The notes beneath the pieces are model-generated. The model had not been told where the DNA came from and made no database searches. It worked only from the letters and a program-made list of their open reading frames with translations. Positions 4,727-54,696 of a stretch of 64,000 nt of DNA are shown here, one piece after another. The stretch's first letter is position 1. Each line of letters starts with the position of its first letter. Source of the stretch: an uncultured Bdellovibrionales bacterium (GTDB lineage Bacteria; Patescibacteriota; Minisyncoccia; Moranbacterales; UBA1568); assembly GCA_964436855.1 (NCBI GenBank), contig CAYTED010000003.1, forward strand, positions 33,393 through 97,392. Reading direction: 5' to 3'. A program made the position numbers and the translations under genes.

Positions 4727-4934
4727 ACGTTTAGAACCTGTCCGAAATCTCCATATTCTGCTGCAACACTGAAATGTTAGCTGCAAAAAGTTCAGATCTC
4801 GTCAGGTTATATTCTAATAGCCTTCCTCCATCTTCACTTTCTTCGCTCAACATTTCAGTGTTTCGCGACGAAAGAGAGATTTCGGACAGGCTCTTACATT
4901 AAACCGTTACAAGGAAAGTATAGCATAAAAATTT

Positions 4935-7788: not shown

Positions 7789-7820
7789 CTCAAAAATAGT
7801 TTCGAAACGCTTTTCGTAGA

Positions 7821-7942
7821 TTTTCGTGCGAAAAATGCACGGATTGAGAAGGGCTATCGGGCGATAACCCGACGAGATACGAGCATTTTGCAGCCGAAAA
7901 GAACGGAAAGCAAGTCGAAAATTATTTTTGAGATGAGCTCTG
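7821..7942 (+). repeat. ~125-nt non-coding repeat, copy 1 (GATTGAGRAGGGCTATYCGG..GATAACCCGA..TTTTGCAGCC..)
   Basis: ~75% identical to 21724-21847; the ORF present in copy 2 is not conserved here (stop in frame), so probably RNA or DNA element. Confidence 0.6.
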
Positions 7943-7982
7943 CTCCTTTCATTATATACGGCAATTCTTTTTCACGGAAGAT

Positions 7983-10109
7983 CTACTCGGTCGCAATTCC
8001 CGATTCGGCTTCCATCCTTCGCTTTGCCTGCTTGTGTGAAAGATTGATCCGTCCCTGCGCATCGATTTCTTTCACTACAACCGGAACGATATCGCCAATC
8101 TTCACCACATCTTCCACTTTTTCCACGCGATAATCGGCAAGTTCGGAAATATGAATGAGTCCTTCTTGGTTCGGCAACACTTCCGCAAAGGCACCGAAAT
8201 TCATAAGACGCGTAATACGACCCTGGAACAATTCGCCCGCTTTCACTTCACGAGTGATGTTTTTGATCCAATCTGTCGCTTCTTTCGCGCTCGTTTCATC
8301 GGTCGAGGTAATGAAAACCGATCCATCATCCTCGATATCGATCGACACGCCGGTTTCATCGATAATCCGGTTAATCATCTTCCCGCCGGGGCCGATCACA
8401 TCGCGGATTTTCTCCGGGTTGATATGAAGAGTGATGATACGCGGCGCATACGGAGACATTTCTTTGCGCGATTCTGGCAAAGTTTCAAGCATTTTTCCGA
8501 GAATTTCGAGACGGGCTCGCTTTGCTTGCGCGATCGCCACCGCAAGCATCGACGGTGTGAGTCCATCGATCTTCACATCCATCTGCATCGCAGTAATACC
8601 ATCCGTCGTTCCCGCAACCTTGAAATCCATATCGCCATAATGATCTTCCAGTCCTTGAATGTCGGTCAGTACCTTGTATTCCCCTTCTTTTCCAGTAATC
8701 ACTCCCATCGCAATACCCGATACCGGCTTCTTGATCGGAACACCCGCATCCATAAGCGCGAGCGTTGAACCACACGTTGACGCCATCGACGATGAACCAT
8801 TTGAGGAGAGCACTTCGGAGACAAGTAGAATAGTGTACGGAAATTCTTCTTTCGGCGGAAGCATCGGGAGGAGCGCCTTTTCCGCGAGGGCGCCGTGCCC
8901 AACTTCTCGCCGTCCCGGACCACGCATCGGCTTCACCTCACCCACCGAATACGGCGGAAAATTGTAGAAGTGCATATATCGCTTCTTCATATCGACTTCC
9001 ATCGTATCAACCACCATTTCATCGCCGGGCGCGCCGAGTGTCGCAACCGTGAGCACCTGCGTCTCACCGCGCGTAAAGAGCCCGGTGCCGTGCGTTCGCG
9101 GGAGAACTCCCACACGAGACCAGATCGGTCGGATTTCTTCGAGACCACGCCCATCCGGACGAGCGTCTTTCTTCAAGATATTCTCGTGTACAATCTCATC
9201 GGACACCTCTTCATACACAATGCCCGTTATTTCCTTCGCGTATTTTTCATCCGGAAAGTTTTCCTTCACGTATTCGGCAAGTTTTTCCTCAATTTCGGAA
9301 ACCTTCTCCTGCATCGCCTGTTTCGGGCGAAGATAAAGCGCTTCATTCAAACCAGAATTCTTCAAGAATTCCCGCACACCCGCTTCAAACGCCTCCGATC
9401 CCAAGAGCATCGCCGCTTCGCGCTTTTCTTTGCCGATTTCCGTGCGGATATCTTCGATAAAGGTCGCGATTTTCTGAATCGCCTCAAAACCAAATTCAAA
9501 CGCCTTTGCCATCGTTTCTTCGGGAATTTCGTTCGCACCCGCCTCAATCATATTGATTTTTTCCTTCGTTCCCGAAAGAAGCAGGTCGAGCTTCCCGACT
9601 TCGCGCTCATCCGTCGCCGGATTCAAGACAAAATCGCCATTCGTCATTCCGACACGCACCGCACCAATCGGCCCGTTCCACGGAATATCCGAGAGGGCAA
9701 GCGCCGCCGAAGCCGCATTCATCGCAACCGTATCCGGATCGTTTTCACCATCAAAACAGAGGGTTGTAACCACCACCTGCACATCGGTCCGCATCCGTGA
9801 ATTGAAAAGTGGTCGGATCGTCCGATCCACCGCGCGCCCCGAAAGAATCGCGTCATCCGACGGGCGACCTTCACGTTTGATAAAACGCGACCCTTTAATT
9901 TTCCCCGCCGCGTAATACCGTTCTTCGTAATCCACCATCAAAGGAAAGTAGCCCATAATATTGGACGCACCCTTTCCCATCGTTGCTGCCGCAAGGACAA
10001 CCGTATCGCCGTACTGCGCTGTTACCGAACCGTTCGCCTGTCCGGCGAGCAAACCGGCCGTAATTTTAAGCTCGCGGCCGCCGAGCTGCAGACTCCATGA
10101 TTTTTCCAT
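7983..10109 (-). CDS. pnp: Polyribonucleotide nucleotidyltransferase (PNPase)
   Basis: Two RNase PH domains, KH and C-terminal S1 domain; start at [11 protein letters not shown]. Confidence 0.95.
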
Positions 10110-29455: not shown

Positions 29456-29544
29456 ATTCTATTTGAGAGCGGGCCGCCTTTCATCCAGCCCGAAGGGCGG
29501 ATGGGCGAGCCTCGCTCAAAAATTTTGCTCAAGAAAAATTTTTG

Positions 29545-29616
29545 AGCGGGTAACGGGAGTCGAACCCGTATCTAGTCCTTGGCAAGGACTCATAATAGCC
29601 GCTATACGATACCCGC
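29545..29616 (-). tRNA. tRNA-Gly (anticodon GCC)
   Basis: Acceptor GCGGGTA/TACCCGC, anticodon stem AGTCC/GGACT with loop TTGCCAA, T-loop TTCGACT, U73. Confidence 0.8.
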
Positions 29617-29735: not shown

Positions 29736-30359
29736 GCTTCTCACTATTGCTTTCGCAACTTTTTTCAAATTTGTGAGCTGGACTATCCCTTCACCCAAAC
29801 AGGGTGTCTGCCGTCTAGTCTCTACACCTTCCCCAGCAAAACGCAGGGGCTTGGCTCGGGATTGTCATGCGACTTGCAAAAAGTTTGTCGTTTAGATTTC
29901 CCCGAATTTGGCAGAGTATCACTTGGAAATTACTTCCCAAGCAGCCCTTCGTATTCATTACATCTTGTGTTATTGTTTCGCTATGAAAAAAATCACAACT
30001 TGTACCGTGTGTGGCAAGACATTATCCGGAAGGCAACTTCGGTTTTGTTCGATGCAATGCAAGAACCAAGTTCACCAATCATACCAAGCGCAACAGGCTC
30101 GGGGACTCAAAAGAAAAATGCTTCTCTTAAAGCGATTTGGTGGAAAATGCTCCATCTGCAATTACGACAAAAACCTCGCCGCACTTACATTTCATCATAT
30201 CGACCCGAAGCAAAAGAGTTTCCAACTTGATATGCGATCTCTTTCGAATCGAAAACAATCCCAAATCGATACCGAGATACGAAAATGCATACTCGTTTGC
30301 AATAACTGTCATGCCGAACTCCACAACCCACAACACAATTTGAAATGAACTTTTTGAGC
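29736..30359 (-). mobile_element. Group I intron (Azoarcus-like IC3 core) in the tRNA(CAU) anticodon loop
   Basis: The intron RNA contains GGGGAAATCTAAACG, CCCGAGCCAAGC, and GAAGGTGTAGAGACTAGACGGCA followed by GGGATAGTCC (P7 GACTA/TAGTC). The 5' splice site follows U33 and the intron ends in G. Of the ~624 nt, ~366 nt are the antisense HNH ORF. Confidence 0.8.
29983..30348 (+). CDS. HNH homing-type endonuclease (encoded antisense within the group I intron)
   Basis: CxxC...CSICNYDKNLAALTFHHIDPKQKSF...LVCNNCHAELHN = zinc-finger plus HNH motif; ORF 29908-30348, probable start at M26 (29983). Confidence 0.75.
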   Translation: MKKITTCTVCGKTLSGRQLRFCSMQCKNQVHQSYQAQQARGLKRKMLLLKRFGGKCSICNYDKNLAALTFHHIDPKQKSFQLDMRSLSNRKQSQIDTEIRKCILVCNNCHAELHNPQHNLK

Positions 30360-30418
30360 CGACCGCTCTAACCCCTGAGCTACGGTCCCTTCTTGTCTCT
30401 CACCTTCCCTGAGCTCTG

Positions 30419-30490
30419 TGCCGGAGGGCAGAATTGAACTGCCGACGCAAGGATTTTCAGTCCTTCGCTCTACCACTGAGCTACTCCGGC
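30419..30490 (-). tRNA. tRNA-Phe (anticodon GAA)
   Basis: Acceptor GCCGGAG/CTCCGGC, anticodon loop CTGAAAA, T-loop TTCAATT. Confidence 0.85.
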
Positions 30491-44416: not shown

Positions 44417-45883
44417 TCATTCTATATGCATATCCACGCTTGCTGCGGATTCCTTGGCAAGCCTTCTCCCCGAGAGAATAATATCGATCTCGTCGCGAGA
44501 AACTCCTCGGAAAAGCCAGAGGAGGGCAAGGTAGAGGAATACCGCCGCAAATCCAAGCACAAGAAACGGCATTGTTTTGTCAAAAAAGAAGAGAAATACA
44601 CCCATACCGAAGCCCGCGAGAAAAATTCGCCCGATTCCGGAAAATCCCGGAAAAAAAGCCGCGCTTTTCCAAGCAATAGAGGCCGAGAGAACAACAACGA
44701 GCATTTCCGTTAAAAGCGACGCGGTCGCCGACCCCATATAGGAAAACCTTGGAATAAGAAAGAGGTTGATTCCAATGTTGAATACCGCCGCGAGCGAAAG
44801 CGCCCACATTAATTTCTTCTGCGCGTTCGAAACAAGCACGATCATATTGAAATAATGCCCGAAAAAAATGAATGCGAGCGAAAAAACGAGGATTTCCAGA
44901 ACCGGAATCGATGCGACGAAGCTCTCCCCGCTCACAATGCGAATAATATCATCAGCGAGAAACATTGTTCCGACAAGAGTCGGCGTAACAATGATAAAAA
45001 ACACCTTGAAAGTCTTTTTGGCAATCGTTTCAAACTTCGCCCGATCAGATCGAATCGTGTGCGAAAGAAGCGGGATAATAAGCCCCGCGAGCATTGCCGG
45101 AAAAAAAACGAGGTTTTCCATCACTTTGTATGCGACATTGTAAATACCGACATCCGTACTTGATTGAAAAACCGAAAGAAGAATCGTGTCGAATTTGAAG
45201 TAAAGGAAGGTGATAATCGCGGTAATCCCCATCGGATACGATTCCCGAAGAAATTCTTTCCAGTACGAAGTATCAAACCGCAACGCGGCGGACACGTATC
45301 GACGACTCAAGAGAAATACCGTTACCGCATTGAATCCCATCGACACGAGGAGCGACGAAACCACCGCAAGAAATCCCCAGTCCGACATAATGGCAAACGC
45401 CACAAACGATACCTGAAGCACCTTTCCGATAAACTCCACCATCGCAACTCGATGCATCGCAACCCGTTTCTGAAAAACACCATTCAAAACAAGCGACATG
45501 GTCGAAAACACAATGGCGAATGCGCCGATCAAAATTCCCGCCTTCAAATCCTGCGAATAATCAAAAAAAAGAATGATGATCGGCGAAAGAAGAAAGACAC
45601 CGAATGACGAGAGGAGACGAAGCGAAAACACATTTCCAAGAATTTTTTGTTCATTGGCATTTTCGCGCGATATCTCCCGAACAGTAATCATTCCCATTCC
45701 GAGATCGGCCAATGCCGAAAAAAAGGCAAAAAATGCGAGTACGGTGGAATACCGGCCAAACCCCTCCGGCCCGAGATACCCGGTAATAAGCCGAATCGAA
45801 AAAAGCGACAAAAAAACCGTCGATACGACTTTCAGTATCGAGACAATAACCACGTTGTACGCTATTTTCCTCGCCAAAACCAT
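44417..45883 (-). CDS. wzx: Polysaccharide biosynthesis flippase (Wzx, MOP superfamily)
   Basis: 488 aa, ~12-14 TM helices, N-terminal region typical of PST/Wzx flippases. Confidence 0.75.
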   Translation of the reverse strand: MVLARKIAYNVVIVSILKVVSTVFLSLFSIRLITGYLGPEGFGRYSTVLAFFAFFSALADLGMGMITVREISRENANEQKILGNVFSLRLLSSFGVFLLSPIIILFFDYSQDLKAGILIGAFAIVFSTMSLVLNGVFQKRVAMHRVAMVEFIGKVLQVSFVAFAIMSDWGFLAVVSSLLVSMGFNAVTVFLLSRRYVSAALRFDTSYWKEFLRESYPMGITAIITFLYFKFDTILLSVFQSSTDVGIYNVAYKVMENLVFFPAMLAGLIIPLLSHTIRSDRAKFETIAKKTFKVFFIIVTPTLVGTMFLADDIIRIVSGESFVASIPVLEILVFSLAFIFFGHYFNMIVLVSNAQKKLMWALSLAAVFNIGINLFLIPRFSYMGSATASLLTEMLVVVLSASIAWKSAAFFPGFSGIGRIFLAGFGMGVFLFFFDKTMPFLVLGFAAVFLYLALLWLFRGVSRDEIDIILSGRRLAKESAASVDMHIE

Positions 45884-45943
45884 AGCCCTATTGTAAACGA
45901 AAAAAGCCCCCGTGTCTCGGGAGGGATTTTCGGAAAATGTTCT

Positions 45944-46411
45944 TTAAAGAGCGACTTGCGGGGCGGGCTTGATGATGATTTTTCGATCCTCACCTCTTCC
46001 GGAACTTTCCGTAAGGACTTTCCCGCGATTGGCGAGATAGGTATGCACAATTTTCCGCTCATAAGGGAACATCGGGCGAAGGGTGACGGTCCGGCCCGTG
46101 CGAAGCGCCTCTTCTTCGGCCTCCAAGGCCTCGCGCTCGAGAATCGGTTTCTTTTCTTCCAAATAATGATTCACATCAATAAGAAGATCGATGCGTTCCG
46201 AAAGCTTTTGGGAGAGAATCGAACGCGCGATGTATTGAAACGCCGCAAGCGAAACGCCGTGCTGCCCGATAAAAATCTTCGATCCATCCGAAAGGGCAAT
46301 ATCGGCGGAATATGCCGTTTCTCCCGATTTTTGAACGGATACCTCGCCGGAAAATCCCATTCTTTGCAGGAGTTCGGTTATAACTTGTCGCACCATTTCT
46401 TCGTGATTCAT
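45944..46411 (-). CDS. jag: Jag/KhpB-like RNA-binding protein (KH + R3H)
   Basis: Jag_N-like N-terminus, KH and C-terminal R3H (HTYLANRGKVLTESSGRGEDRKIIIKP); conserved position after yidC. Confidence 0.8.
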   Translation of the reverse strand: MNHEEMVRQVITELLQRMGFSGEVSVQKSGETAYSADIALSDGSKIFIGQHGVSLAAFQYIARSILSQKLSERIDLLIDVNHYLEEKKPILEREALEAEEEALRTGRTVTLRPMFPYERKIVHTYLANRGKVLTESSGRGEDRKIIIKPAPQVAL

Positions 46412-46423
46412 ACGTCGTTTCGG

Positions 46424-47197
46424 TTATTTCTTTACTTCTGTATGTTCCGCATGCTTCTCTTTGAAAATAAATTGCTGCTGAATAATAGTGAAAACCGTAG
46501 AAACAAGCCAGTACAGAGAAAGCCCCGCCGGAAACGTAATACCGACAAAAAGCGTCATCCCGGGTCCGAGAATAAGCATTTGCTTATTCATAATAGTCGC
46601 GAAGTCCGGCTTTTCATCCGATTGTTCCTCTTTCTTTTCCTTTTCTTTTCGCGCTTCTGCGGATTTTTTCTGCACATCAAGCATCATCTTGGTCTGATAA
46701 TACTGTGCCGCCGCCGCAAGAATCGCAAAAAGATAGCTCGGTTTCGCAAGATCGGCAATTCCGAAAAAGTGATGCGAGATCTCTCCGGGATGAGAAACAA
46801 AAGAGTAGAGTTGTGCGGCATCGACGGAAAATCCTGCCGCGGAAACGCTGATAATCGCCCGATAAATCGCAATCAGAAAAACGACCTGCACAATAAGCGG
46901 GAGGCACCCGGCAAACGGATTCACCTTATGCTCCTGATAGAGTTCCATAAGGGCTTTCTGTTGCGCCGCTTTGTCATCTTTGTATTTCCGTTGGATTTCC
47001 TTCGTGAGCGGTTGGATTTCCTGCAGCTCCTTTTGCGATTTGATTTGTTTTTTGTAGAGCGGAATAAAGAGGACTCTCAAAAGAAGGGTTGTCGCGATAA
47101 TCGCGAGGCCAAAATCGCTCCCCGGGATGGTATTGTAGAAAAAAATGAGCGAGTTATAAATCGGCTGAGCGACAAGAGTATGGAAAAGTTCAGTCAT
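46424..47197 (-). CDS. yidC: Membrane protein insertase YidC (short, Gram-positive type)
   Basis: 257 aa; conserved NPFAGCLPLIVQ helix and YidC/Oxa1 core. Confidence 0.9.
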   Translation of the reverse strand: MTELFHTLVAQPIYNSLIFFYNTIPGSDFGLAIIATTLLLRVLFIPLYKKQIKSQKELQEIQPLTKEIQRKYKDDKAAQQKALMELYQEHKVNPFAGCLPLIVQVVFLIAIYRAIISVSAAGFSVDAAQLYSFVSHPGEISHHFFGIADLAKPSYLFAILAAAAQYYQTKMMLDVQKKSAEARKEKEKKEEQSDEKPDFATIMNKQMLILGPGMTLFVGITFPAGLSLYWLVSTVFTIIQQQFIFKEKHAEHTEVKK

Positions 47198-47210
47198 AGG
47201 AATAAAAATA

Positions 47211-47558
47211 TTATTTTCGGATTTTTTGGAGGCATCCCGAAAGCGTGCGGGACACTTCTTCCAGTGTAAGCGATTCCGGCCGTTTCGTATAGAAGAAGGC
47301 GTATTCTCCCGCTGGAAAAAGCTTTTTTTTCAGATAATCACGGCTTGCTTCTCGGAGAAGTCTCTTTGCTCGATTTCGTTCCGTCGCTTTGCGAAAGTAT
47401 TTTTTCGATGCGATTACCGCTATTTTTACCTCTTTTCCTTTGTTTTCAGCGGAAAATACCACTTTCCCACCCAGAAAAAGATAAAAAAGGGGCTTTCCTT
47501 CACGAAAAACCCTTTCTATTTCCCCTGTACCGGTCATTCGATTTCCCTTGGGAAGCAT
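47211..47558 (-). CDS. rnpA: Ribonuclease P protein component
   Basis: LPKGNRMTGTGEIERVFREG...ERNRAKRLLREA RnpA signature. Confidence 0.85.
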   Translation of the reverse strand: MLPKGNRMTGTGEIERVFREGKPLFYLFLGGKVVFSAENKGKEVKIAVIASKKYFRKATERNRAKRLLREASRDYLKKKLFPAGEYAFFYTKRPESLTLEEVSRTLSGCLQKIRK

Positions 47559-47564
47559 ATCGCC

Positions 47565-47706
47565 TTTATACTGTCAGTCGCTTGCGCCCTTCACGGCGTC
47601 GCTTTGCAACGACTTTTCTCCCGTTTTTTGTTGACATCCGCTTCAAAAAGCCATGACGTCTTGTTCGGCGGCGTTTTTTCGGCTGATAGGTTCTCTTCGT
47701 GCTCAT
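47565..47706 (-). CDS. rpmH: 50S ribosomal protein L34 (apparent +1 frameshift near C-terminus)
   Basis: Not in the ORF track (<60 aa). The reverse-strand translation [42 protein letters not shown] is canonical L34. The conserved ending RLTV-stop is reached only if one G in AAGGCG is skipped. The in-frame reading instead runs to 47533. Confidence 0.75.
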
Positions 47707-47889
47707 ATCTCTGAAAAGCTTATTACAACACTCAAAAGAATACTTCCTTTTCAGAAAAAAGTCAAACGGTATGCGCTGTATGCCTCGTTATCCACTTATA
47801 CACCGGATATACACCAGCTTCCTCGATACCAATTTCGCTCCGTGATATAATGCTTTCGTTTTCTCTTTATCCCCCGTGAATATTCCCCT
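47707..47889. promoter_or_regulatory. rpmH-dnaA intergenic region: DnaA-box cluster and dnaA promoter (TATAAT at 47845-47850)
   Basis: TTATCCACT (47785-47793), TTATACACC and ATATACACC box-like repeats; GTGATATAATGC -10 element. Confidence 0.55.
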
Positions 47890-49332: not shown

Positions 49333-49613
49333 ATACAATAATACGTGGATAACCTGTGAAAAACTCCTGTATAAATCCTTTCTTTCCTTGTGCACCCTGT
49401 GGATACTTTGTTAAAAAATACTTCAAAAAATTCTCTCCCTGAATATTTTTTCACTTTACCCCCTATTCATTCAGAATAAATCCCCAAAATCTCCCCCTAT
49501 GAATTCCTTATTTTCCCTTTTAATAAAACATTTCACTCACTTTTCCACTTATACACCACACTAATAGTAATAATATTTAATATATATTTAATTAATATTT
49601 ACTTTATAAACAT
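49333..49613. promoter_or_regulatory. oriC: Candidate oriC: DnaA boxes plus AT-rich DNA-unwinding element between dnaA and dnaN
   Basis: CGTGGATAA (49344-49352) and TGTGGATAC (49398-49406) are reverse-complement matches to TTATCCACA at 8/9. CCACTTATACACC is shared with the upstream spacer. 49560-49613 is ~90% A+T. Confidence 0.6.
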
Positions 49614-50868: not shown

Positions 50869-51180
50869 ATGCGAAATCTTTCAGAATATCTTCAAAAAAA
50901 GAATTTTTCCCCGATTGTCGACAGTGGCGAAGAAATTTCTCGCGAAATAGACGACAAAACCGTATTTTCGGTATTCCGAATGGTGATTGAAGGGGAATAC
51001 GGCGCGCGCGGGAAAGAAAATATCGAGCCGCGATTCTATCAGAAGAAAAAACTCTTCGTGAGTTTCCGGAGTTCTCTTTGGGCGAGCGAAGTTTGGCTCA
51101 ATCGCGAGCACCTCAAGAAAAAACTCAACGAAACCCTTGGATTTCAGGGGATCGATGAGATAAAAGTGAGTATGAATTGA
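50869..51180 (+). CDS. dciA: DUF721/DciA-like protein (putative replicative helicase operator)
   Basis: 103 aa; LFVSFRSSLWASEVWLNREHLKKKLNE resembles the DUF721 core; conserved location after dnaN. Confidence 0.55.
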   Translation: MRNLSEYLQKKNFSPIVDSGEEISREIDDKTVFSVFRMVIEGEYGARGKENIEPRFYQKKKLFVSFRSSLWASEVWLNREHLKKKLNETLGFQGIDEIKVSMN

Positions 51181-51273
51181 TAGTTCTAAACTATTGACAA
51201 AAAATTAAAAGAAGTTCATAATTAAATGTTTTATTTAACAATACAAGCATCATTGGCCTAAAGGAGAATTAGC

Positions 51274-52035
51274 ATGAAGCTAAGACTTTGGACAGCAATT
51301 CTTTTGGTGCTATGTCTCGTGCGGATAGACATTATCACCGTTCCATCTCGACCACCGATGTATAGAGATCTAAAATACGTTAAATTTGATCCCAAACACA
51401 ACACCTTTTATGATTACGGGTTAAGTGTTGAAGGGTGGTGTGTGGTAAGTGGTGGTTTTGGTAGGGACCTATGCTCTAGGCCCGACCCTATACCCGCTAA
51501 GGATCAGCTAAAATTCTCTCTTCGAGAGGGAGTGCTAAGGGAGAGGAATTGGTCGTACCTTGTTGGCGCAATATATGTCACACAGAAACGTGTCTTAGAG
51601 CGCCTCTATGATGATATTGAAGGGAAAACGCATTACCTATTTAACTGTGCCGCGCCTCCTTTTACACCGCCAGGCATGAAAGTCGTTATGCATAATGGCA
51701 AGAGATACGCGTGGGACTTTTGTGTTGAGGTGTACTCGCCGCATAGCGAAACAAATAGTGAGTTTGTAAGGGGATATGATTATCTAAAAAAACTCGCCGG
51801 GCGACAGGCGCTAGACGCCACAACACTAGAATATCTTCTCTCAAATCCGTATCTCATACCGCTAAATTGGCGAAAACCAGGAATGCAAATTTTATTCCCT
51901 GGAACGATTTATGGGAATGAATTGGGGGTGTATCACTGTGGTCTACTTTTTAGCACGAATGGTCGGTGGTGCGCTTCGATTGTTCCTCTCGACACTGAAT
52001 GGGCCAACAATGTTGTAGCCGCGATCAAGGTATAA
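51274..52035 (+). CDS. Hypothetical secreted Cys-containing protein in a compositionally atypical cassette
   Basis: Own promoter (TTGACA-17-CATAAT at 51194-51222), strong RBS AAGGAGA and signal peptide. Codon usage is rich in CTA/AGA/AGG/ATA, unlike neighbouring genes. A 10-bp-stem terminator follows. Confidence 0.6.
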   Translation: MKLRLWTAILLVLCLVRIDIITVPSRPPMYRDLKYVKFDPKHNTFYDYGLSVEGWCVVSGGFGRDLCSRPDPIPAKDQLKFSLREGVLRERNWSYLVGAIYVTQKRVLERLYDDIEGKTHYLFNCAAPPFTPPGMKVVMHNGKRYAWDFCVEVYSPHSETNSEFVRGYDYLKKLAGRQALDATTLEYLLSNPYLIPLNWRKPGMQILFPGTIYGNELGVYHCGLLFSTNGRWCASIVPLDTEWANNVVAAIKV

Positions 52036-52040
52036 AAACA

Positions 52041-52080
52041 GCCGTCAAGGAGGGTAACCACCTTGGCGGCCTTTTGTTTG
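52041..52080. terminator. Rho-independent terminator (GCCGTCAAGG...CCTTGGCGGC stem) between the cassette gene and the convergent PBP1A gene
   Basis: 10-bp stem (one G.U) followed by CTTTTGTTTG; A-tract on the other side. Confidence 0.7.
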
Positions 52081-52089
52081 GTCTTCAAC

Positions 52090-54696
52090 TCAATAACTCA
52101 CCGAGACGTTTTTGGAGGATTTTGCTTTGTTGCCGTTCTTATCTTTCACTTCGGCTTCTATTTCAAGCGTGGAATTGTTTTTTTCCGCCGGAATAGAGTA
52201 AGACACCAAGTAGGGCTTGCTCCCGCTTGAGCCGACTTCATTTCCATTCACCCTGTAAGTGACGCTTTCGACGCCATACTCCGCATTGACGCTTGCTTGA
52301 AGCGTGAGAGATGAGGAAGAGGTGCTTCCCGGGACGGAAAGAGAAATCAAGGGGAGATATTTTTTGAAGTCGTCTTGTTCGCATTCATTTTTTGGCGGAT
52401 CATCGACGACGAATTTCTTCCGGTTTTCTTTGTTTTCATACCAGTCTTTCACACCTTTTTCCCATGATTTGTATTGTGAATCGCGGTCGGGTTTGTCCGG
52501 GATCGGTCCCAATGGATCATCGCGGTTCACATAGGAGAGAATGTCGTGTCCGGAAACGAAATCCTTTTTCTCTACGTCTTTATCGCGACAGAATTTATTC
52601 GCGAGGCAGAATTTGTCATCTCCGATTTCACAGACCTTCACGTCTTCTTTCATATCAAGTTTGCCGTTTATCATCGGCTTGTCGACGAGGGTTTTCTCGG
52701 AATCTTTGTTGTCTTTGTCTTCGCCGTCTTTTTTCTCGGTATCGTTGTCTGTTTTGTATTCCGGAAACGATTCGACGGGGGAGTTTTGGAGCGCTTTGTC
52801 AATAAAATTTCGCCAAATCGGTGCGGCGACAACCGAACCATCCGCGCCCGGAGTCATCGCGGCGTTGTCGTTGTTCCCTACCCAGACGCCGACCGCGAGC
52901 GAGGGGGTAAAACCCATTGTCCAGGCATCGCGGAATTCATTTGTCGTTCCGGTTTTCGCGGCAACTTGGCGATTGTCGAAACGAAGCAAATTTTTCTCGC
53001 CGAAAACCGGTGCTCGGTAGTCGTTGGTCGACATTACATGGTCGAGCATCGCGACATATTTTTCATCTACGACGCGTTCCCCCGGGTTTTCTTTGTATTC
53101 CTCGAGCATCGTCCCATCGGTTCCTTCGATGCGGAGAATGGCGGTTTTTTCGCGTTTCACACCGCCTGCTGCGAGGGTCGCATAGGCGTGGGCGTGATCG
53201 ATAAGCTTCACTTCACCGCCACCCAAGACGAGCGAGAGTCCGTATCGATCGGGATAATTGAGCGTCGTGATACCAAGGTCTTTTGCCATTTTGGTTGCGT
53301 CTTTTACGCCAACCAAATAGAGTGTTTTGACCGCGGGAATATTGAGCGATTGCGGAAGTGCTTCTTTCATTGGGATCGGGCCGCGGAATTTTCCATCGTA
53401 ATTCTGCGGTTCGTATTTTTTTTCTTCATTCGTATCGAATTGCGTTGGTGTGTCGTAGAGAAGGGTGTCTGGCGAATAGCCCTTGGTAAACGCGGTAAGG
53501 TAGACATAGGGTTTGATAGAAGAGCCCGGCTGTCGTTCGCGGATGGCGACGTTTACATTGCCGTCGATCGAGGCATCAAAATAGTCTTTTGATCCGACCA
53601 TGGCGAGAATTTGACCGGTTTTCGGGTCGATTGCGACGAGCGCGGCGTTTGAAGCCTTCCATTTCGTTGCATTTTTTTCAACACCTTCGCGCACTGCTTG
53701 CTCGGCGGCCATTTGTTTGTCCCAATCAAGCGTCGTGTATACTTTGAAACCATTTTGTTCGATGGCGAGATCGCCGAATTTTGTCGCGAGGTATTCTTTT
53801 ACGTACATGACGAAGTGCGGCGCGGCGATAATGTCTTTTTGCGGGGAAATTTTTGCGAGAACATCTACAGCGATAGCTTCGTTTGCTTGATCTTCGCCGA
53901 TGTAACCGAGACGCGCCATCGTTTTCAGGGCGACCTCTTGGCGGATTTTGAGTTCATTGGTTCGGGATCCGTACGGGGAATAGCGGCTGGGAGCCTTCGG
54001 GAGCGAGGCGAGGAGCGCCGCTTCGTCGAGGGAGAGATCTTTGGCGGATTTTCCAAAATAAGTTTGCGAGGCCGCTTCGATACCGTAGGCGTTCATTCCA
54101 TACGGGATTTCATTCAAATACATCGCAAGGATCTCGTCTTTCGAGAATTTCTGCTCGATTTCGATCGAGAGAATAGCCTCTTTGATCTTTCGAACGATAG
54201 TTTTCTCATTGGTGAGGAGAGAGTTTTTCACAAATTGCTGGGTGATGGTGGATGCGCCTTGAGCTGCGCCTCGATGGAGGAGATCTTTTAAGGCGGCGCG
54301 GACAATTGAGGTAATTTTAATCCCATGGTGGGAGTAAAAATCTTGATCTTCGAGCGAAAGCGTTGCGGCACGAACAGCTTCTGGCATATCAGAGAAAGGG
54401 ATAACCGTGCGTCGTTCCTCCCCGTGCACTTCGTAGAGGAGGTGCTCGCCGGTGCGGTCGTAGATTTTGGTCGATTCGGCGATAAAGCGCTTGTTTACCT
54501 TGCCGGGACTCGGAAGGTCTTTCGCGACATAGGCAAACACGGCGATTGTCGAGAAGACGCCGATAACAAAGAGAAAAAGAGTGAATTTTACACAAAAACG
54601 AAAGAATTTCCGCCATTTTGAGCGGTTTTTCGGTTTTTCTTCGCGGGGATCTTCATCTCGCGCCTTTTTCGGCCGCAAGAAGTGAATAATGGTCAT
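52090..54696 (-). CDS. Class A penicillin-binding protein (PBP1A: GT51 glycosyltransferase + transpeptidase) with long C-terminal extension
   Basis: N-terminal TM; GT51 motifs (GASTITQQF), transpeptidase SSIKP / KTG motifs; 868 aa. Confidence 0.92.
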   Translation of the reverse strand: MTIIHFLRPKKARDEDPREEKPKNRSKWRKFFRFCVKFTLFLFVIGVFSTIAVFAYVAKDLPSPGKVNKRFIAESTKIYDRTGEHLLYEVHGEERRTVIPFSDMPEAVRAATLSLEDQDFYSHHGIKITSIVRAALKDLLHRGAAQGASTITQQFVKNSLLTNEKTIVRKIKEAILSIEIEQKFSKDEILAMYLNEIPYGMNAYGIEAASQTYFGKSAKDLSLDEAALLASLPKAPSRYSPYGSRTNELKIRQEVALKTMARLGYIGEDQANEAIAVDVLAKISPQKDIIAAPHFVMYVKEYLATKFGDLAIEQNGFKVYTTLDWDKQMAAEQAVREGVEKNATKWKASNAALVAIDPKTGQILAMVGSKDYFDASIDGNVNVAIRERQPGSSIKPYVYLTAFTKGYSPDTLLYDTPTQFDTNEEKKYEPQNYDGKFRGPIPMKEALPQSLNIPAVKTLYLVGVKDATKMAKDLGITTLNYPDRYGLSLVLGGGEVKLIDHAHAYATLAAGGVKREKTAILRIEGTDGTMLEEYKENPGERVVDEKYVAMLDHVMSTNDYRAPVFGEKNLLRFDNRQVAAKTGTTNEFRDAWTMGFTPSLAVGVWVGNNDNAAMTPGADGSVVAAPIWRNFIDKALQNSPVESFPEYKTDNDTEKKDGEDKDNKDSEKTLVDKPMINGKLDMKEDVKVCEIGDDKFCLANKFCRDKDVEKKDFVSGHDILSYVNRDDPLGPIPDKPDRDSQYKSWEKGVKDWYENKENRKKFVVDDPPKNECEQDDFKKYLPLISLSVPGSTSSSSLTLQASVNAEYGVESVTYRVNGNEVGSSGSKPYLVSYSIPAEKNNSTLEIEAEVKDKNGNKAKSSKNVSVSY

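What the first reader, a model, noticed from the sequence alone, without database searches (positions are those of the whole stretch)
51181..52090. Self-contained single-gene cassette with atypical codon usage inserted between the dciA-like gene and the PBP1A gene
The 253-aa secreted Cys-containing protein (51274-52035) carries its own near-consensus promoter (TTGACA-17-CATAAT), a strong AAGGAGA RBS and a 10-bp-stem bidirectional terminator.

Its codon usage is enriched in CTA, AGA/AGG, ATA and TTA. These codons are almost absent from flanking housekeeping genes, which prefer C/G-ending codons such as CTC, CGC and ATC. The pattern suggests recent horizontal acquisition of a standalone module next to the replication-origin genes. 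The protein has no recognisable catalytic motif and could be a secreted effector or toxin-like factor.
Basis: partly seen in the sequence, partly recalled or inferred. Interest (0 to 1): 0.5.

Follow-up and report, generated by a model that had tools for sequence, protein, structure and literature searches.

The report
Lone retroelement-target-type binding gene inserted near origin
A small gene with its own promoter has been inserted next to the replication-origin genes of an uncultured ultra-small (Patescibacteria) bacterium, and it encodes a probably exported relative of the proteins that diversity-generating retroelements hypermutate in this group, but with no retroelement nearby, so it is a modest new variant of a known kind and not a toxin.

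Summary
ORF 51274-52035 (253 aa) has an 11/12-match promoter, an AAGGAGA ribosome-binding site and a strong bidirectional hairpin terminator. Its synonymous-codon usage is the most deviant of 51 ORFs in the window (z = -9.2; 12 of the 44 CTA codons counted), although GC and GC3 are ordinary.

The closest syntenic relative found (L019: DnaA 78%, PBP1A 74% identity) has dciA and PBP1A about 70 bp apart with no such gene. More distant Patescibacteria also lack it at this junction. It is therefore an insertion.

It is not a complete orphan: an exhaustive HMMER search found 573 relatives. Residues 118-253 match an unnamed Patescibacteria family. Three independent members of that family lie beside bAvd and a reverse transcriptase, each with a 121-123-bp template/variable repeat pair that differs only at template adenines. 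These are bona fide diversity-generating retroelement (DGR) targets.

The alignment-based AlphaFold2 model gives weak but consistent C-type-lectin-fold hits. The gene's rare subfamily (4 clusters) adds a conserved signal peptide and a two-cysteine extension. The window contains no template repeat, reverse transcriptase or Avd.

Best reading: a horizontally acquired, exported, DGR-detached ligand-binding protein.

The parts
50869..51180 (+). dciA-like gene (context). Its stop codon is the left border of the insertion.
   Evidence: Pfam PF05258 DciA, E = 2.2e-7, 31.4 bits against a cut-off of 24. It is 58% identical to the dciA of L019.
51194..51222 (+). Sigma-70-type promoter, TTGACA-17-CATAAT.
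   Evidence: 11 of 12 consensus matches, the best site in the region scanned. There is no terminator between the dciA stop and this promoter, so read-through from dnaN-dciA is also possible; this is an inference.
51261..51267 (+). Ribosome-binding site AAGGAGA, 6 nt upstream of the ATG.
   Evidence: Read directly from the sequence. It supports the 253-aa start over the 225-aa start used in the NCBI-derived protein P0001.
51274..52035 (+). The inserted gene (called X in this report), 253 aa plus stop codon.
   Evidence: ORF confirmed. The reading frame is confirmed by homologues P0003 (48% identity, E = 5e-62), P0004 (40%) and P0005 (45%). Codon z = -9.2.
51274..51348 (+). Residues 1-25: N-terminal hydrophobic signal peptide or membrane anchor (MKLRLWTAILLVLCLVRIDIITVPS).
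   Evidence: This segment is conserved in all four subfamily members, at 51% mean pairwise identity. AlphaFold2 predicts a helix at residues 2-16. No signal-peptide predictor was available, so export is inferred.
51349..51624 (+). Residues 26-117: a subfamily-specific extension carrying the conserved pair Cys56/Cys67, followed by a helical segment that matches the N-terminal helices of the ~190-aa canonical family members.
   Evidence: Both cysteines are conserved in X, P0003, P0004 and P0005. Some phmmer hits extend back to residue 78. Model confidence here is pLDDT 47-78.
51625..52032 (+). Residues 118-253: the domain shared with Patescibacteria DGR variable proteins; predicted C-type-lectin-like fold.
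51910..52032 (+). Residues 213-253: the segment equivalent to the variable repeat (VR) of DGR-linked relatives. It is not matched by any template repeat in the window.
   Evidence: No repeat of the gene's 3' half occurs anywhere in the 64 kb; the best match is 34 bp at 71%. No canonical TR sequence matches the window. Only 7 of the 17 scaffold positions that A-free TR codons fix in the DGR-linked members are retained (and the alignments).
52034..52079 (.). Bidirectional intrinsic terminator: A-run, hairpin 52041-52070, T-run. It serves X (and dciA read-through) on the + strand and PBP1A on the - strand.
   Evidence: Free energy -23.4 kcal/mol, z = -3.8. L019 has an unrelated hairpin terminator at the equivalent place although it lacks X, so this element may predate the insertion.
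52090..54696 (-). Class A penicillin-binding protein gene (context). Its stop codon is the right border of the locus.
   Evidence: Pfam Transgly, Transpeptidase and Big_7 domains. It is 74% identical to the PBP1A of L019.

Best explanation
X is a horizontally acquired single-gene insertion of about 0.86-0.9 kb. It carries its own promoter and RBS and uses, or brought, the terminator. It sits between the dciA stop codon and the dciA/PBP1A terminator of a Patescibacteria (CPR) genome, about 2 kb from the likely origin of replication.

It encodes a probably exported or membrane-anchored protein. The C-terminal 135 residues belong to an unnamed Patescibacteria protein family whose canonical ~190-aa members include the variable (target) proteins of CPR diversity-generating retroelements. 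That domain most likely adopts a compact C-type-lectin-like fold with a C-terminal ligand-binding surface.

X belongs to a rare subfamily that adds a signal peptide and a disulfide-capable extension and has remodelled the variable-region scaffold. No template repeat, reverse transcriptase or Avd lies within the window. It most likely acts as a fixed-specificity surface binding protein (an adhesin or receptor-binding protein for a host cell, particle or phage) and not as an actively hypermutated one.

Shown: the insertion, the codon anomaly, the homology, the DGR linkage of some relatives, and the absence of DGR parts in the window. Inferred: export, fold, binding function, loss of diversification, and the donor.
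For: Insertion:
- L019 (DnaA 78%, DnaN 62%, DciA 58%, PBP1A 74% identity) keeps the order dnaA-dnaN-dciA|PBP1A-ATPgrasp-ATPgrasp. Only about 70 bp, holding one hairpin terminator, separate dciA from PBP1A there.
- Kerfeldbacteria and Doudnabacteria loci also have dciA directly abutting PBP1A.

Foreign character:
- Codon z = -9.2 to -9.8.
- The homologue P0004 lies between an unrelated gene and recJ in a 57%-GC genome. There it is again a codon outlier (z = -9.15, GC3 0.54 against about 0.75) and is bracketed by a 52-nt direct repeat.

Family:
- 573 phmmer hits, with no Pfam, NCBIfam, PHROG or PDB-sequence match.
- P0181, P0191 and P0185 lie immediately upstream of bAvd and RVT_1. Each has a TR/VR pair of 121-123 bp whose 19-20 mismatches are all at TR adenines.
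- X against P0181 and P0191 gives BLASTP 9e-19 and 9e-16 over residues 119-253.

Not locally diversified:
- The window has no TR-like repeat and no RT or Avd.
- Only 7 of 17 A-free scaffold positions are kept.
- Within the subfamily, the VR-equivalent segment is not markedly more divergent than the core (0.40 against 0.49 mean pairwise identity).
- An independent assembly gives an identical protein.

Export: the N-terminal hydrophobic segment and the Cys56/Cys67 pair are conserved in all four subfamily members.

Literature: Roux et al. 2021 (PMC8144416) describe CPR-specific clade-2 DGRs whose targets usually lack recognisable transmembrane or other domains.
Against: - Only 64 kb of the genome is visible, so a DGR elsewhere that targets X remotely is not excluded.
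- Only 3 of the 13 family loci examined are DGR-linked within the flank fetched, 5-10 kb on each side for most loci. 'DGR target family' therefore describes part of the family, not all of it.
- No signal-peptide predictor was run, and the LVLC motif is not a canonical lipobox.
- X's GC equals the host's and no donor was identified.
- No target-site duplication or terminal repeats mark the insertion.
- The nearest comparator is distant, so loss in L019's lineage cannot be formally excluded.
- No binding partner is known for any member of this family.
Confidence: 0.62

Rival explanations
1. X is an active remote target of a DGR encoded elsewhere in the same genome, outside the window. Its C-terminal 41 codons are still being rewritten by mutagenic retrohoming, with the downstream hairpin helping target recognition.
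For: X is homologous to proven DGR targets up to its C-terminus. A stable hairpin lies just 3' of the VR-equivalent segment; from established knowledge of the Bordetella phage BPP-1 DGR, such hairpins assist homing. Several family members lack an adjacent RT and could also be remote targets. DGRs are enriched in CPR genomes (PMC8144416).
Against: No TR, RT or Avd occurs in the 64 kb. In the three DGR-linked loci the TR begins about 340-350 bp downstream of the target gene. X differs at 10 of the 17 positions that A-free TR codons hold fixed in canonical members, so any TR would have to be of a different type. The VR-equivalent segment shows no excess divergence within the subfamily. An independent assembly gives an identical protein. 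The hairpin is explained as the dciA/PBP1A terminator, which L019 also has without X.
Confidence: 0.12
2. X is an ancestral resident gene of this lineage that was lost independently in the relatives examined. Its odd codon usage reflects weak expression or relaxed selection, not foreign origin.
For: GC and GC3 match the host. No insertion scars are present. The nearest comparator is distant (62-78% protein identity). The dciA-PBP1A interval is variable among Patescibacteria: recF lies between dnaN and dciA in L006/L007, a Nudix-like gene replaces dciA in L009, and L021 has an 800-bp gap.
Against: Every lineage sampled with this junction lacks X. Only 4 clusters of the subfamily exist among 1.84 billion representative proteins. 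The one homologue with genomic context visible lies elsewhere in its genome and is also a codon outlier there, with flanking direct repeats. z = -9 is far beyond any real gene in the window, including other poorly conserved ones.
Confidence: 0.08
3. X is a secreted toxin or effector.
For: It probably has an N-terminal export signal and cysteines. It stands alone with foreign codon usage.
Against: No toxin, enzyme or immunity-partner signature appears in Pfam, NCBIfam or PHROGs. PADLOC was not searched. No adjacent immunity gene is present. The homologous family and the predicted fold point to ligand binding.
Confidence: 0.04

Closest known systems
Target (variable) proteins of Patescibacteria/CPR 'clade 2' diversity-generating retroelements (Roux et al. 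2021, PMC8144416), exemplified here by P0181, P0191 and P0185
   Same: The roughly 135-aa C-terminal domain is homologous at 30-32% identity (BLASTP 9e-19 and 9e-16), and the conserved motifs are present (DC..PF.P, H..W, LNA..L.YLL..P.LIP..W, F.GT.Y, ..AA at the C-terminus). Like them, it occurs in Patescibacteria and is a compositional outlier in its host genome.
   Different: X has a signal peptide and a roughly 50-aa extension with two conserved cysteines, whereas the canonical members have no recognisable transmembrane segment or signal. X has no adjacent TR, bAvd or RT. Ten of its 17 fixed VR-scaffold residues are changed, including three tryptophans. It stands as a lone gene with its own promoter.
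Structurally characterised DGR variable proteins with the C-type lectin fold: Mtd (Bordetella phage BPP-1), TvpA (Treponema denticola, PDB 2Y3C), AvpA (Nanoarchaeota) and TaqVP (Thermus aquaticus)
Small integrative cassettes without their own recombinase (cis-mobilisable elements, integron cassettes)
   Same: X is a unit of about 0.9 kb holding a single gene, placed at the 3' ends of housekeeping genes. The homologous cassette in L011 is bracketed by att-like 52-nt direct repeats that duplicate the recJ 3' end. In L049 a family member sits in an array of small genes separated by a repeated 68-118-nt element.
   Different: The window copy has no flanking repeats. X carries its own promoter, whereas integron cassettes are usually promoterless (from general knowledge). 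No attC-like site was noted in the flanks, the downstream hairpin is a terminator, and no integrase-like ORF was apparent among the window's ORF translations; neither was searched with a specific model. Mobility is inferred, not shown.

Membership tests
Unnamed Patescibacteria protein family that includes CPR DGR variable proteins (sequence family) | Significant sequence homology over the whole C-terminal domain to members with proven DGR linkage | tested here: met
   BLASTP 9e-19 (P0181) and 9e-16 (P0191) over residues 119-253. phmmer found 573 hits at E <= 1e-3 and 34 at E <= 1e-10.
Unnamed Patescibacteria protein family that includes CPR DGR variable proteins (sequence family) | Conserved core residues of the family | tested here: met
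   X keeps the family residue at 22 of the 30 columns that are at least 90% conserved in alignment A2. The differences are D124N, G143K, L153V, N181D, E197L, W209P, V222C and R223G.
DGR target gene (functional definition) | A variable repeat at the 3' end of the gene, matched by a template repeat whose mismatches fall at TR adenines | tested here: not met
   No repeat of 51600-52090 longer than 34 bp occurs anywhere in the 64-kb window, and no canonical TR matches it. In contrast, L013, L016/L018 and L048 have 121-123-bp pairs with 19-20 adenine-only mismatches. The rest of the genome could not be tested.
DGR target gene (functional definition) | A DGR reverse transcriptase, with or without the accessory protein bAvd, in cis | tested here: not met
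   tblastn of two CPR DGR RT and Avd protein pairs against the window gave nothing below E = 0.1. The genome outside the window was not testable.
DGR target gene (functional definition) | Scaffold residues of the VR, encoded by A-free TR codons, are conserved | tested here: not met
   These 17 positions are shared by the three independent DGR-linked members, apart from an S/R difference at one position. X retains 7 of them (alignments).
C-type lectin / FGE-like fold | Three-dimensional similarity to solved C-type-lectin-fold domains | tested here: inconclusive
Sec-exported or membrane-anchored protein | N-terminal positively charged region followed by a hydrophobic core, conserved among homologues | tested here: inconclusive
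   MKLR followed by LWTAILLVLCLV is conserved in P0003, P0004 and the upstream-extended P0005, and a helix is predicted at residues 2-16. No SignalP or LipoP was available. The residue before Cys14 is Leu, which does not fit a canonical lipobox.
Insertion sequence / transposon | Transposase gene, terminal inverted repeats and a target-site duplication | tested here: not met
   The insert holds a single ORF with no transposase homology. Local alignment of the flanks shows no significant direct repeat (score 17 against a shuffle mean of 16). The one inverted match (score 24; 2 of 300 shuffles reach it) lies inside the dciA and PBP1A coding regions, not at the borders of the insert.
Integron gene cassette | A promoterless ORF followed by an attC recombination site, next to intI | not tested
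   By eye, X has its own near-consensus promoter, the only downstream palindrome is a 30-nt terminator hairpin with a T-run, and no integrase-like ORF was apparent among the window's ORF translations. No attC or IntI model was run.

The most novel reading that the evidence does not exclude
The promoter-gene-terminator units of about 0.9 kb that encode this DGR-target-type domain are themselves a class of small mobile cassettes without their own recombinase. They integrate at the 3' ends or terminators of housekeeping genes in Patescibacteria and so spread ready-made binding modules (and potential new DGR targets) between genomes.

The supporting observations are:
- the empty site in L019 against the filled site in the window;
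- the 52-nt att-like direct repeats that duplicate the recJ 3' end around the P0004 cassette in L011;
- the array of small genes separated by a repeated 68-118-nt element around a family member in L049;
- the consistent compositional outlier status of family members in their host genomes.
Probability: 0.1. Interest if true: 0.6.

Novelty: new variant of a known kind. Interest (0 to 1): 0.36.

Why it matters
DGR targets of CPR bacteria are reported to lack recognisable export signals, which leaves open whether they act inside or outside the cell (PMC8144416). This gene defines a rare subfamily of the same domain that has a conserved signal peptide and a disulfide-capable extension and has no retroelement in the surrounding DNA visible (about 51 kb upstream and 12 kb downstream in the window). 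That shows the scaffold is also used as an exported, apparently fixed binding module, and that it moves between genomes as a single-gene unit.

For episymbiotic ultra-small bacteria, such surface binders are candidates for host attachment.

The finding also gives an unnamed family of more than 570 clusters (no Pfam, NCBIfam or PHROG model) an evidence-based label. It corrects a deposited gene start that removes the signal peptide.

The practical importance is modest. It is an annotation-level advance and a lead, not a new mechanism.

Tried and rejected
- Word-indexed protein search with X alone returned only X itself. The exhaustive HMMER search was needed to find relatives.
- Pfam, NCBIfam and PHROGs gave nothing for X or its relatives. 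A recurrent ScsC_N hit (25 members, best E = 0.006, below the cut-off) was judged spurious.
- A profile search of PDB sequences gave no hits at E <= 10.
- Single-sequence AlphaFold2 was unusable (pLDDT 36).
- Foldseek against the PDB and against viral structures gave nothing significant. The afdb50 library was unavailable.
- tblastn of X against GenBank phages and PLSDB plasmids gave no match.
- DGR parts (TR, RT, Avd) were searched for in the window and around P0004; none were found.
- Target-site duplications and terminal repeats around X were searched for; none were found.
- X's flanks were searched for elsewhere in the window, and compared with the L049 repeat and with the P0003 and P0004 upstream regions. 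No similarity was found beyond a 13-nt stretch shared by the P0003 and P0004 leaders.
- Integron-cassette and IS explanations were rejected (see the membership table).
- Looking up the NCBI contig through P0001 failed, so the rest of the 136-kb contig and genome could not be scanned for a DGR.
- The Paul et al. 2017 paper on CPR DGRs could not be retrieved.
- The 800-bp gap at the same junction in L021 has no ORF of 70 aa or more, no Rfam match and no X-like remnant.


Full report
**1. The observation**

The window has 46.2% GC. The ORF at 51274-52035 (+) encodes 253 aa.

- Promoter TTGACA-17-CATAAT at 51194-51222, 11 of 12 consensus matches.
- RBS AAGGAGA at 51261-51267, 6 nt before the ATG.
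- A hairpin at 52041-52070, preceded by an A-run and followed by a T-run, with a free energy of -23.4 kcal/mol and z = -3.8 against shuffles. It ends 19 nt before the stop codon of the convergent PBP1A gene, so it can terminate transcription in both directions.

The codon claim also holds. CTA, AGA, AGG, ATA and TTA make up 10.7% of the gene's codons, against 0.5-2.4% in dnaA, dnaN, dciA and PBP1A. Twelve of the 44 CTA codons counted in the window's ORF set lie in this gene. Its synonymous-codon log-likelihood under the leave-one-out window background is z = -9.17, the most extreme of 51 ORFs. The next most deviant ORFs (z = -3.3 to -5.4) look like spurious frames.

One correction is needed. 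GC (0.451) and GC3 (0.425) are ordinary for this window, so the anomaly is in codon choice and not in base composition.

The neighbours are DnaA, DnaN, a DciA-family protein and a class A PBP. Cumulative GC skew reaches its minimum at about 49.4-49.8 kb, in the AT-rich dnaA-dnaN spacer. The gene therefore lies about 2 kb from the probable origin of replication, pointing away from it.

**2. Organism and presence/absence**

The nearest DnaN sequences among GTDB species representatives are at most 50% identical. They come from MAGs labelled Moranbacteria or Patescibacteria. A metagenome scan found one closer contig, L019, with these identities: DnaA 78%, DnaN 62%, DciA 58%, PBP1A 74%.

L019 keeps the gene order dnaA-dnaN-dciA|PBP1A-ATPgrasp-ATPgrasp. 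Its dciA and PBP1A stop codons are about 70 bp apart, and that spacer holds a single bidirectional hairpin terminator and nothing else.

Other Patescibacteria loci give the same answer:
- In Kerfeldbacteria (L005, L030), dciA ends about 5 bp from the end of PBP1A.
- In Doudnabacteria-like loci (L006, L007), the two genes are about 30-40 bp apart.
- L009 has a Nudix-like gene at this position, and L021 has an ORF-less gap of about 800 bp.

No locus has a relative of X at this junction.

Two limits apply. The terminator may be the host's own, because L019 has one at the equivalent distance from PBP1A. No target-site duplication or terminal repeats mark the borders of the insert.

**3. What the protein is**

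X alone found only itself in the word-indexed search and matched nothing in Pfam, NCBIfam or PHROGs. An exhaustive phmmer search of 1.84 billion cluster representatives found 573 hits at E <= 1e-3.

Three hits are full-length homologues: P0003 (48% identity), P0004 (40%) and P0005 (45%). All the other hits align to residues about 118-253. They are mostly proteins of about 150-200 aa with strongly conserved motifs (IDCDA.PF.P.GW, H..GG..W, PVLNANVLDYLL..P.LIPEEWKGK, FFWGTIYR, PAA at the C-terminus). Where a source names them, they are 'hypothetical protein' from Patescibacteria, Andersenbacteria or Paceibacterota. No Pfam model and no PDB sequence matches the family.

**4. Link to diversity-generating retroelements**

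Genomic context gives the family a meaning. P0181 (L013-L015), P0191 (L016-L018) and P0185 (L048) each lie immediately upstream of a bAvd gene (PF22296) and an RVT_1 reverse transcriptase.

In each case the last ~40 codons of the gene are repeated about 340-350 bp downstream as a 121-123-bp copy. The copy differs at 19-20 positions, and every difference falls at an adenine of the downstream copy. This is the defining template-repeat/variable-repeat (TR/VR) signature of DGR mutagenic retrohoming.

X aligns to P0181 and P0191 through to its C-terminus, with BLASTP E = 9e-19 and 9e-16. It keeps the family residue at 22 of 30 near-invariant columns.

The literature agrees. Roux et al. 2021 describe a DGR clade restricted to Patescibacteria. 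Its targets, unlike most cellular DGR targets, usually lack recognisable transmembrane or other domains, and the authors expect them to include new C-type-lectin-fold variants (PMC8144416).

**5. Fold**

The single-sequence AlphaFold2 run failed (pLDDT 36). With a 63-sequence alignment, the model reaches pLDDT 80.8 overall and 88-95 across the C-terminal domain.

**6. How X differs from the canonical family**

- *Exported architecture.* X, P0003, P0004 and P0005 all begin with a conserved positively charged and then hydrophobic N-terminus. For P0005 this requires extending the ORF to an upstream GTG that has a GAGG ribosome-binding site. The hydrophobic segment is followed by an extension carrying two invariant cysteines, Cys56 and Cys67. 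The canonical ~190-aa proteins have a hydrophilic helical N-terminus instead. The NCBI-derived protein P0001 starts at Met29 and so loses this signal. The RBS and the homologues support the longer form.
- *No DGR in view.* The 3' half of the gene has no repeat longer than 34 bp anywhere in the 64 kb. Neither canonical TRs nor CPR DGR RT or Avd proteins match the window.
- *Changed scaffold.* In the three DGR-linked members, the 17 VR positions encoded by adenine-free TR codons are shared, apart from an S/R difference at one position. X keeps only 7 of them and has lost three scaffold tryptophans.
- *No excess divergence.* Within the X subfamily, the VR-equivalent segment is not much more divergent than the rest of the protein (mean pairwise identity 0.40 against 0.49 for the core).
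- *No variation between assemblies.* An independent Logan assembly gives an identical protein. The only nucleotide difference is at 52065, in the terminator stem.

Together these points argue that X is not being diversified by a canonical TR. A remote DGR of a different type, outside the window, cannot be excluded.

**7. Is the whole family a 'DGR target' family?**

Not demonstrably. Of the 13 family loci examined, 3 are DGR-linked. The other ten have no RT, Avd or TR within the flank fetched, 5-10 kb on each side for most loci. They are P0199, P0160, P0241, P0231, P0004, X and four IMG/VR contigs. Lone copies are therefore common. They may be remote targets or non-diversified paralogues.

**8. 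Evidence that these genes move**

- P0004 sits in a 57%-GC Patescibacteria contig between an unrelated gene and recJ, a context unrelated to the window's. There it has GC3 0.54 against about 0.75 for its neighbours, and codon z = -9.15.
- The P0004 promoter-gene-terminator unit is bracketed by 52-nt imperfect direct repeats 941 bp apart. The local-alignment score is 45, against a shuffle maximum of 26-32. The downstream copy comprises the terminator tail plus the last 12 codons of recJ, which is an att-like duplication.
- All four subfamily genes carry their own RBS and terminator, and three of them (X, P0003, P0004) also a TTGACA box upstream.
- Canonical family members are also compositional outliers in their host genomes, with gene GC 6-15 points above locus GC.
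- In L049, a family member lies in an array of small unannotated genes, most of them preceded by a repeated 68-118-nt element, some copies of which contain a TTGACA box.
- The window copy itself shows none of these scars.

**9. Most likely mechanism**

X is transcribed from its own promoter, possibly also by read-through from dnaN-dciA, and transcription ends at the shared terminator. The protein is probably exported or anchored through its N-terminal segment (inferred). Its extension may form a Cys56-Cys67 disulfide (inferred). It would then present a compact C-type-lectin-like domain whose C-terminal face, the part that DGRs rewrite in its relatives, binds a ligand (inferred from the family and from established knowledge of the DGR variable proteins Mtd and TvpA).

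With no cognate retroelement in view and an altered scaffold, its specificity is probably fixed. For an episymbiotic Patescibacteria cell, a host-surface or particle adhesin is the most plausible role. A decoy or receptor for phage is an alternative.

**10. Verdict**

The horizontal-acquisition interpretation is supported, although 'recent' is unproven. The 'no motif / effector or toxin' reading is replaced by an exported, DGR-detached member of the Patescibacteria DGR-target family.

This is a new variant of a known kind, of moderate-to-low interest. The more speculative and more interesting lead is that such single-gene units are themselves small mobile cassettes.

Noticed in passing
window 29756-29998 (-): Rfam group I catalytic intron (RF00028, 56.6 bits against a gathering score of 50). 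It lies in a tRNA cluster, between tRNA-Gly (29544-29616) and tRNA-Phe (30418-30490). ARAGORN run with introns allowed found no interrupted tRNA around it, so its host gene is unidentified.
   Followed up: partly
L011 9866-9917 and 10807-10858: A 52-nt imperfect direct repeat (73% identity, exact core AGGCGCAGGCGGAC) brackets the promoter, gene and terminator of the X homologue P0004. The downstream copy is the terminator tail plus the last 12 codons of recJ. This looks like attL/attR of a 0.94-kb integrative cassette that has no recombinase of its own. Neighbouring genes 7799-8455 (GC 0.33) and 9415-9831 are also compositional outliers.
   Followed up: partly
L049 4751-8657: An array of small, unannotated genes on the + strand, one of which is the family member P0160. 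Most are preceded by a 68-118-nt repeat (copies at 4751, 5600, 6469, 7118, 7638 and 8590) that starts right after a T-run; some copies contain a TTGACA box. It looks like a cassette array with a shared intergenic element.
   Followed up: partly
L021 9497-10298: At the same dciA|PBP1A junction, this Moranbacteria-like contig has a gap of about 800 bp. It has no ORF of 70 aa or more, no Rfam match and no similarity to X. The junction appears to be a recurrent site of insertion or decay.
   Followed up: partly
window 51274-51357 (P0001 compared with P0002): The NCBI-derived protein for this gene (P0001, 225 aa) starts at Met29 and omits the conserved signal peptide. The Logan-derived call (P0002, 253 aa), the AAGGAGA RBS and the homologues all support the longer form. 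Likewise, P0005 was called from an internal GTG and probably starts 33 codons upstream.
   Followed up: yes
window 52065 (L043 position 931): An independent 1,019-bp Logan contig (SRR30303844) equals window 51135-52153 except for G>A at 52065, which breaks a C-G pair in the terminator stem. The contig ends 46 nt into dciA and 64 nt into PBP1A. That would fit assembly breaks near the borders of the insert, for example from presence/absence heterogeneity, but this was not tested.
   Followed up: no
window 49333-49613: The dnaA-dnaN spacer is AT-rich (GC about 0.32) and coincides with the minimum of cumulative GC skew. It is probably oriC. No search for DnaA boxes was made.
   Followed up: no
window 44426-47714 (+ strand ORFs): Long + strand ORFs here (for example 45647-47269, 540 aa) translate to lysine- and arginine-rich low-complexity sequence, have no Pfam hit and have deviant codon usage (z = -4.7). 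They are probably spurious, with the real genes on the - strand (ORFs 45944-46411, 46424-47197 and 47211-47558).
   Followed up: no
L046 367-2040 (IMG/VR contig), and proteins P0006, P0008 and P0010: Some family members carry 3-4 tandem copies of the domain in one protein. In L046 the copies are 81-86% identical at the DNA level, with mismatches not confined to adenines. This indicates recent tandem duplication and not a TR/VR relationship.
   Followed up: partly
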